DNA of 63,612 nucleotides, filler included, from Aplysia californica (taxonomy: Eukaryota), in assembly GCF_000002075.1 (NCBI RefSeq). It is 4 parts of 4 records of this genome, joined end to end, with 100 filler letters (N's around TTAATTAATTAA, not from the genome) between each part and the next. Parts side by side here need not be neighbours in the genome. Positions count along the whole stretch, not along the records: positions 16,806 to 31,215 come from NW_004797386.1; 3 more parts are not named here. The stretch is one strand, 5' to 3'. A program made the translations under genes and the position numbers. Below are positions 24,326 through 24,976 of the stretch, piece by piece. Every line of letters begins with the position of its first letter. Position 1 is the first letter of the stretch. The notes under the pieces are model-generated. The model ran no database searches. It saw only the letters and a list, made by a program, of their open reading frames with translations, and had not been told where the DNA came from.

Positions 24326-24434
24326 CTTACCGGCGTTGTATGTTTAATTCATCATCGAAATTCCGTTGAAAAATATGTTTGTTCTTGCCTTTTCTTTTGT
24401 CGTAGAATGCCCAAACTGACTGTTGTAAGGAAGG

Positions 24435-24617
24435 ACATGGGTGGTTGGCGGGTAGGCTACTCTGTTGTGGTTTGCTCCTTCTTTCCTATCAAACATCTAC
24501 CGTCCTGATCTCTCCTTTTTTTATGTTTGTTACTCTCTTGTAACACCTCTGCCTCTAATCTTCGGCACTTATATGACCTTATTGTGTTGCAAGTGCCGTA
24601 AAACTCTTACTTATAAC
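24435..24617 (+). mobile_element. Family A retroposon with 9-bp TSD
   Basis: taaggaagg at 24426-24434 and 24618-24626. Confidence 0.88.
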
Positions 24618-24976
24618 TAAGGAAGGGCGACAGATCGTCAGGGAAATTTGTTTAGCCAAGGAGGCATCAGTGTCAGCGAGACTTTTAATGATATTATACT
24701 TTTAAAATGTCAATCTGATGTCTTTTAAAAATTGTCAATCTAATGTCTTTTTTAGGTCAATCTGATGTTGTTTTTTTGTGTGTTTTCTGATGTCTTTTTT
24801 TGTGTCAATCTGATGTCTTTTTTTGTGTCTCTTCTTCTTCTCTTTCATCTTTTATTTTTAATGGACCCCCGGTCTCCAGTGTGAAGGCTGCTGTTTCCTG
24901 CAGGTCTTCCAGGCTCTTGTAGAGTTGTGGGTCTCCCATCTTTTTGAGGGAAAGTAACACCAACATGTATGCACCC

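What the first reader, a model, noticed from the sequence alone, without database searches (positions are those of the whole stretch)
24426..24626. Family A: abundant ~175-bp retroposon with a fixed 5' end but no Pol III head
Seen: about 20 copies in 63 kb. At least 14 begin at essentially the same sequence, gtgggtggttggcgggtgctctggtgtgg (e.g. 12913, 19262, 24140, 24438, 29212, 50201, 52264, 57432, and on the minus strand 18655, 33917, 34106, 37640, 42166, 42528). They end in a hairpin plus (aaaact)n and carry variable-length TSDs (9, 11 and 12 bp), the mark of target-primed reverse transcription. No gttcga-type B box is visible, unlike families B and C. Random 5' truncation would not give one shared start. 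Inference: a non-tRNA SINE or an internally deleted I/Nimb-type LINE whose 5' end is set by an internal or upstream promoter, or by RNA processing. It may be undescribed.
Basis: partly seen in the sequence, partly recalled or inferred. Interest (0 to 1): 0.7.

Follow-up and report, generated by a model that had tools for sequence, protein, structure and literature searches.

The report
Headless sea-hare retroposon with fixed start
A very common 175-letter jumping element of sea hares starts at the same letter in thousands of copies and ends in an RNA hairpin like that of Nimb-type LINEs, which likely copy it, yet it lacks the small-RNA promoter head of ordinary SINEs, so it is likely a cut-down LINE read from its own start signal.

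Summary
Observation confirmed and extended. In the window 19 of 23 body-bearing copies begin within 4 bases of one start. Across sea-hare sequencing runs about 3,700 contigs break off there, 78% at the same G, with unrelated sequence upstream; a second species label has the family too. Copies carry 11-13 bp target duplications and a covarying 3' hairpin shared with the window's tRNA/Nin SINE and resembling a published I/Nimb LINE 3' end; this scan noted that shared tail before on other DNA (e1-9586214). No tRNA, 5S, 7SL, snRNA or known ribozyme head was found, and an internal T-run argues against Pol III. Best reading: a Pol II, ORF-less derivative of a Nimb/I LINE (5' end plus 3' end); the parent LINE was not found, so the promoter step is inferred. 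Rival: the 5' end is cut by RNA processing; the head reads like a splice donor and 13 of 14 intronic insertions lie in the host's sense direction, though selection can explain that. Repbase and Dfam could not be searched. A new variant of a known kind.

The parts
24437..24617 (+). Family A copy named in the finding (first G replaced by A; two small insertions)
   Evidence: 93.6% identical to the window majority
24426..24436 (+). Left target-site duplication
   Evidence: 11 bp, one mismatch
24618..24628 (+). Right target-site duplication
24437..24474 (+). G/T-rich head, no A (first 33 positions of the majority: 18 G, 12 T, 3 C); origin unknown
   Evidence: no Rfam or tRNA match
24475..24562 (+). 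C/T-rich body with a T-run (7 T at 24516-24522)
24563..24598 (+). 3' hairpin of I/Nimb type, followed by GTAAAAC and short A-rich repeats
12828..12907 (+). 5' half copy directly before the next copy
12912..13090 (+). Full copy, divergent tail
17640..18035 (+). Copy with multiplied tail units, just before a GDP-fucose transporter exon
18482..18655 (-). Full copy, tail to tail with a type-ii tail piece at 18422-18481; the one antisense intronic copy
19262..19432 (+). Full copy at the edge of a tandem repeat
24141..24330 (+). Full copy with three tail units
29212..29398 (+). Full copy, subfamily with family-B-type tail, exact 11-bp duplication
31755..31985 (-). 5'-truncated copy with internal duplication
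32090..32204 (-). 3'-truncated copy
33744..34105 (-). Two head-to-tail copies (188-bp unit), likely one insertion duplicated in place
34383..34766 (-). One copy split by a later insertion with inverted ends
35875..35988 (-). 5'-truncated copy
37314..37641 (-). Copy 37529-37355 nested inside an older copy, duplication about 13 bp (8 exact)
40066..40237 (-). Full copy
41987..42166 (-). Full copy 30 bases behind a NEK10 splice donor
42366..42528 (-). Full, most diverged copy (78%)
50201..50375 (+). Full copy, family-B-type tail, exact 12-bp duplication
52264..52320 (+). Head-only copy used as probe for the genome-wide 5' ends
57432..57606 (+). Full copy, divergent tail

Best explanation
Family A is a high-copy, non-coding retroposon of sea hares with one sharp 5' end and a covarying 3' hairpin, likely copied by the reverse transcriptase of an I/Nimb-type LINE and likely transcribed by Pol II from a start signal inside its own G-rich head, as an internally deleted (5' end plus 3' end) LINE would be. 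Shown: copy family, fixed start, unrelated upstream flanks, target duplications in some copies, hairpin covariation, tail shared with the tRNA/Nin SINE, at least two subfamilies. Inferred: the LINE protein binds the hairpin and primes at the A-rich repeats; because the RNA is only about 175 bases it is usually copied to its end, so the DNA start records the RNA start. Inferred and weakest: that the head is the 5' end of a LINE and acts as promoter. Confidence is about 0.93 for 'Nimb/I-mobilised retroposon whose RNA has a defined 5' end' and about 0.5 for the internal Pol II start.
For: 5' ends: in run X1 the four listed break-off rows hold 3,696 contigs, 78% with the first G in place; X5 4,146, 78%; organism B (X20) 337, 86%; upstream agreement 0.34-0.42 (only the best rows are listed, 173 more not shown). 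Same edge seen from a second copy. Tail: 85.7% of 224 cells paired, 13 cells changed on both sides, 0 of 500 shuffles as high (related rows can inflate this); tail fold z -2.86; the tail shares TATGACCT, GTGTYG and GTGCCGTAAAAC in order with the I/Nimb LINE S.constricta_0 (PMC11481361 supplement 4, compared by eye; the motif hits 3 window copies, 0 in 100 shuffles). Against Pol III: T-run of 4-7 at position 78-86 in 13 of 14 copies; no tRNA or Rfam head; head and body not alignable to families B or C beyond shuffles (2 of 50 comparisons under 5%). More than one source lineage: 29212 and 50201 share 9 non-majority letters, the most of 91 pairs, and 954 and 841 RNA reads join the A body to that tail, which fits a signal carried inside the element. 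Bipartite LINE derivatives and mollusc SINEs with LINE-derived heads are published (PMC5786205 passages; PMC4758252 text).
Against: No LINE sharing the head was found: every listed continuation of the head runs into the A body, and no LINE of this clade lies in the window. PMC5786205 lists only RTE, Ingi, Vingi and R2 as sources of ORF-less bipartite elements. The head does not resemble the published LP-SINE / Nimb-17_LMi head (by eye). No pile-up of RNA starts at the first G in three poly(A) runs (table 6 empty), a weak test since such libraries lose short RNA; 1,966 and 940 RNA reads run through the 5' edge from host sequence. No core-promoter motif was shown.
Confidence: 0.5

Rival explanations
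1. The element has no promoter: it is transcribed inside host pre-mRNA and its 5' end is cut at the first G, either by the spliceosome (the head begins like a splice donor) or by an unrecognised nuclease or ribozyme at the base of a 5' hairpin.
For: The first six letters match the recalled donor consensus GTRAGT at 5 of 6. 10 of 10 independent insertions in NEK10 introns and 3 of 4 in GDP-fucose transporter introns are in the host's sense direction (binomial p 0.002). Bases 1-7 are predicted to pair with 53-59, so the end sits at a stem base. Read-through RNA is abundant: 21,327 of 14.8 million reads in X21.
Against: The 5' hairpin is no more stable than shuffles (38 of 300 as stable; 21 of 300 also pair the first 7 bases) and shows no double change. 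An HDV-like descriptor finds no full fold in 14 of 14 copies: 3 partial hits, none with P1.1. No upstream AG preference among listed loose ends. Sense bias also follows from selection against the A-rich antisense strand: 1,611 and 1,681 RNA reads on that strand end in poly(A) at the element's A-run (true polyadenylation or oligo-dT priming). No spliced read using this donor was seen, nor could it be with these probes.
Confidence: 0.2
2. One or a few master copies sit behind an external promoter (snRNA-type Pol II, type-3 Pol III, or a host gene start) and all other copies are dead processed copies.
For: Sharp G start; no internal promoter recognised; flanking-promoter transcription is proposed for SINEU and SVA (PMC4494074 passages). 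Copies are 78-94% identical to the majority, mostly with private changes.
Against: At least two subfamilies with different tails; internal T-run against Pol III; no shared upstream sequence among listed rows, though a single master would be invisible there.
Confidence: 0.15
3. The copies are 5'-truncated 3' ends of a long Nimb/I LINE, cut at one strong stop of the reverse transcriptase.
For: C/T-rich body plus hairpin looks like a LINE 3' UTR (inference); the predicted 5' stem could stall synthesis.
Against: Thousands of contigs end at the first G with no common upstream extension; a structure would stall synthesis at its 3' side, not after it (inference); internal truncations are few, 4 of 23.
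Confidence: 0.1
4. It is an ordinary tRNA SINE whose head has decayed or lost its middle.
For: Loose likeness of bases 6-16 and 28-37 to recalled A and B boxes; shares its tail with a tRNA SINE.
Against: Only about 11 bases between the two box-like stretches; no A in the head; no tRNA model match at E up to 10 in two copies; T-run; the head is near-invariant across the genome rather than decayed.
Confidence: 0.05

Closest known systems
Bipartite ORF-less LINE derivatives: Bov-A, RIME/NARTc, Vingi derivatives, RTESINE (PMC5786205, passages seen); R2 and R2/R1 SIDEs (PMC3414825, abstract seen)
   Same: Short, non-coding, no small-RNA head, fixed 5' end, LINE-type 3' end, target duplications
   Different: Those come from RTE, Ingi, Vingi or R2, with a known parent and often an HDV-like ribozyme; here the tail is I/Nimb-like, no ribozyme fold was found and the parent is unknown
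LP-SINEs of gastropods and bivalves, e.g. Lsa_2 (PMC4758252, main text parts 2-6 and supplement PDF parts 1, 2, 4 seen)
   Same: Mollusc SINE-sized elements without a tRNA head, proposed Pol II, variable duplications
   Different: Their head is the 68-bp Nimb-17_LMi-like sequence, which family A does not resemble (seen only as the Chlamys copies in supplement S2; the figure with Lsa_2 itself is not held)
Mollusc SINEs with I/Nimb tails: BivaV-SINE1, Chlamys MESC SINE, Meta SINEs (PMC11481361 passages and supplement 4; PMC4824008 passages)
   Same: Same hairpin-plus-GTAAAAC tail layout
   Different: They have tRNA heads and conserved V, Meta or MESC domains; family A has neither
Described Aplysia SINEs: Aca-Nin-DC, Aca_CORE_1 (338 bp), Aca_CORE_2 (226 bp), Aply (353 bp), CALSINE3 (PMC4758252, PMC5804259, PMC5786205 passages)
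   Same: Same host; window family B resembles the Nin type and shares the tail
SINEU and Sadhu (PMC4494074, passages seen)
   Same: Retroposons with internal oligo-T and no recognised promoter; transcription is an open question there too
   Different: SINEU heads derive from U1/U2 and ride Tx1; family A matches no snRNA model

Membership tests
Non-LTR retroposon (TPRT) | Variable-length target-site duplications | tested here: met
   11, 11, 12 and about 13 bp at 24437, 29212, 50201, 37529; above mismatched-pair control; absent or decayed in most copies
Non-LTR retroposon (TPRT) | 3' tail of short repeats, no terminal inverted repeats or LTR | tested here: met
   heterogeneous A-rich 3' edge
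I/Nimb-mobilised element | 3' end like that of an I/Nimb LINE | tested here: met
   By-eye match to S.constricta_0, motif, covariation; a clam LINE, not the host's own
I/Nimb-mobilised element | Partner LINE in the same genome | not testable with these tools
   No genome held; collection scans empty
Classical SINE (tRNA, 5S, 7SL head; Pol III) | Small-RNA-derived head with A and B (or C) boxes | tested here: not met
Classical SINE (tRNA, 5S, 7SL head; Pol III) | No internal Pol III terminator | tested here: not met
   T4-T7 at position 78-86 in 13 of 14 copies; PMC4758252 notes read-through of T4-T5 in some SINEs, so this is not absolute
Bipartite non-autonomous LINE / SIDE | Fixed 5' end, no ORF product, LINE 3' end | tested here: met
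   a 52-codon stop-free frame in the majority is broken by variable T-runs in copies
Bipartite non-autonomous LINE / SIDE | Head identical to the 5' end of the parent LINE | tested here: inconclusive
   No other continuation of the head among 24 listed loose-end rows, 173 not shown
Ribozyme-headed retroelement (HDV-like) | Nested double pseudoknot starting at the first base | tested here: not met
   0 of 14 copies give the full descriptor; no Rfam ribozyme hit
LP-SINE | Nimb-17_LMi-like 68-bp head | tested here: not met
   By-eye comparison with supplement S2; head words absent from that file
SINEU | U1 or U2 snRNA head | tested here: not met
Already named Repbase/Dfam Aplysia family | Match to a deposited consensus | not testable with these tools
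   Neither library is held; five sequence words found in no paper text

The most novel reading that the evidence does not exclude
A promoterless retroposon that lets the host's splicing machinery make its RNA: each sense-oriented copy offers a splice donor at its own first base, the cut and debranched intron RNA starts exactly there, and a Nimb LINE primes on the hairpin 175 bases downstream. It would be a SINE-like parasite whose 5' end is set by the spliceosome instead of a promoter or ribozyme.
Probability: 0.08. Interest if true: 0.85.

Novelty: new variant of a known kind. Interest (0 to 1): 0.4.

Why it matters
If the best reading holds, this is an ORF-less 5'-plus-3' derivative in the I/Nimb group, which the 2018 survey did not list among the four clades known to make them, and a 35-base head that may be a minimal Pol II promoter in a major neuroscience model animal. 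It is also of practical weight: it is among the commonest repeats in these gene pieces, touches about 0.14% of poly(A) reads, and is strongly strand-biased in introns. How promoterless short retroposons get their 5' end is an open question (SINEU, Sadhu); a family with thousands of identical starts makes it directly testable.

Tried and rejected
Exact-pattern scans of metagenome (2), viral (2) and prokaryote genome (1) collections gave 0 hits, as expected for an animal repeat. Rfam at gathering scores over the window: 0; at E up to 10 on two copies: only 4 chance-level hits. The run search listed no holder on record as RNA; raw RNA runs of the same species label were laid instead. No place with many RNA starts or ends. 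HDV-like fold rejected. 5' hairpin not supported beyond shuffles or by covariation. Homology of head or body to families B and C rejected. A concatemer or rolling-circle source was considered because of head-to-tail pairs; such joints are a small share of contigs (tens against thousands) and fit nesting and local duplication. Helitron or MITE nature rejected: variable duplications and a LINE-type tail. An extra cap-derived G was looked for by eye and not seen: upstream Gs belong to the duplications. Summed contig depth was not used as a copy number. Paper searches: (listings seen) found no description of a headless 175-bp Aplysia element or of a splice-donor-defined SINE; the Piskurek and Jackson 2011 paper is not held. 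PMC7245038 and PMC11203168 were seen as passages and added nothing decisive. The SINE library of PMC11481361 (a FASTA supplement) and the figures of all papers could not be read and may bear on the tail assignment.

Full report
Host and setting. The window is animal DNA. One exon is 100% identical to Aplysia californica NEK10, another 99% to its GDP-fucose transporter, and the closest named relatives of the 7TM receptor are from the same species. The window is four pieces joined by N-linkers: piece 2 holds the last two transporter exons on +, piece 3 eleven NEK10 exons on -. No whole genome was available.

The observation. A profile of 13 copies gives 35 hits; 23 carry the family body, and 19 of those start at profile position 1-4. 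Fourteen full copies are 78-94% identical to their majority, 176 bases long, so the window's copies are old. The layout is a head of G and T without any A (33 bases), a C/T-rich body with a T-run near position 81, a hairpin and an A-rich end. Duplications abutting the start are clear at 24437, 29212, 50201 and the nested copy 37529; exact matches of 9 or more bases occur in 4 of 19 copies against 1.2% of control pairs. Most copies show none.

The 5' end genome-wide. In X1, 1,825 contigs leave the probe exactly before the first G, 1,060 one base earlier (where the flank letter A happens to match), 487 and 324 one and two bases later; X5 gives 2,050, 1,182, 532, 382; organism B gives 191, 99, 47; raw RNA 1,966, 940 and 715 (only the best rows are listed). 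What lies upstream agrees at 0.34-0.42, that is, unrelated A/T-rich flanks. A second probe gave the same edge. So there is no hidden tRNA or 5S head and no common LINE extension in the bulk of copies; a minor class cannot be excluded. The count of distinct junction contigs puts the family at several thousand loci or more (alleles may count twice).

The 3' end. The hairpin is real: over 20 tails, 85.7% of cells pair and 13 show double changes, more than any of 500 shuffles and well above slid controls. The double changes separate two tail types; the second is that of family B, a tRNA-headed SINE with a Nin-like domain (Nin likeness by eye against Lsa_Nin_1). Two A copies, 29212 and 50201, carry the B-type tail and share 9 non-majority letters; 954 and 841 RNA reads show the same join. 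The tail shares three ordered blocks with the 3' end of a clam I/Nimb LINE printed in PMC11481361 supplement 4 and the layout of the Chlamys MESC tail.

The head. It matches no Rfam family, no tRNA, not the heads of families B or C and not the published LP-SINE head. It does not fold as an HDV-like ribozyme. Bases 1-7 can pair with 53-59, but the fold is within the range of shuffles and has no covariation. A T-run in 13 of 14 copies argues against Pol III. The head holds GGGTGG and GGCGGG, recalled as Sp/KLF-type boxes, which in so G-rich a stretch is no more than a lead.

How it most likely works. A Nimb/I LINE protein likely binds the hairpin, nicks A/T-rich DNA and primes at the short repeats; the RNA is short enough to be copied to its end, so the shared start records the RNA's 5' end. 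With Pol III unlikely, no known ribozyme, and more than one source lineage, the simplest source of that end is a Pol II start inside the head, as in internally deleted LINEs (PMC5786205). That step is inferred: no parent LINE was found and no RNA start was seen. RNA evidence shows mainly read-through from host transcripts.

An extra observation bears on the rivals. All 10 independent insertions in NEK10 introns and 3 of 4 in the transporter's introns lie in the host's sense direction (p 0.002; my count, taking duplicated and split copies once). With a head that reads like a splice donor, this keeps open that the element is cut out of host pre-mRNA. The ordinary explanation is selection against the A-rich antisense strand: 1,611 and 1,681 RNA reads on that strand end in poly(A) at the element's A-run, whether by polyadenylation or oligo-dT priming. 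Two genes are a small sample.

Comparison and verdict. It works like a SIDE or bipartite LINE derivative and like LP-SINEs; it fails membership of classical SINEs, LP-SINEs, SINEU and ribozyme-headed elements, and membership of bipartite LINEs stays open for want of the parent. Aplysia SINEs named in the papers seen are tRNA-headed or carry CORE/Nin domains; ten paper searches found no account of this one, but Repbase holds Aplysia families that I could not see, and so abundant a repeat may well be there. New variant of a known kind; interest 0.4.

Noticed in passing
window 16706-16805, 31216-31315, 42770-42869: Artificial linkers (44 N, a 12-letter all-frame stop, 44 N): the window is four joined pieces, whose genes lie on records of three different lengths in the protein collection.
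   Followed up: yes
window 31316-42769 and 16806-20464: Strong sense-strand bias of family A in introns (13 of 14); the family B copy at 38523-39020 is sense too.
   Followed up: partly
window 34026: Over 1,600 RNA reads per run end in poly(A) at the element's internal A-run on its antisense strand: cryptic polyadenylation or oligo-dT mispriming; could bias Aplysia RNA-seq.
   Followed up: no
window 34035-34072: A variant with a 38-base internal duplication is common in RNA reads (268 and 224 reads) and present in DNA contigs.
   Followed up: no
window 17787-18080: Multiplied tail units of a family A copy run up to about 45 bases before the transporter's splice acceptor and may supply its branch point.
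   Followed up: no
window 11040-11414, 14358-14756, 38523-39020, 54500-54980: Family B: tRNA-like head, C/T-rich linker, Nin-like domain, same hairpin tail; likely Aca-Nin-DC or a relative.
   Followed up: partly
window 3889-4310, 29726-30108, 40866-41132: Family C: tRNA head, CORE-like domain and tail resembling Cgi_CORE_1 (L2 type); likely Aca_CORE_1.
   Followed up: partly
window 13441, 21792, 27812, 30151, 49441, 53438, 56081, 56769, 59415 (about 440 bp); 37859, 41797, 55054, 55452 (about 245 bp); 16951, 28477, 54029; 26597, 28787, 47359: At least four MITE-like families, most with inverted ends.
   Followed up: no
window 34443-34696: An insertion with 16-base inverted ends splits a family A copy, so it is younger than that copy.
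   Followed up: no
window 1191-3097 (-), 6479-7398 (-), 8140-10617 (+), 14987-15289 (-): Broken RT-bearing LINE, hAT transposase fragment (PF05699) and RTE-like LINE pieces; none shares the family A head.
   Followed up: partly
window 61435-63408 (-): Single-exon secretin-family 7TM receptor (PF00002) with two paralogues of about 81% identity on a record of the same length.
   Followed up: partly
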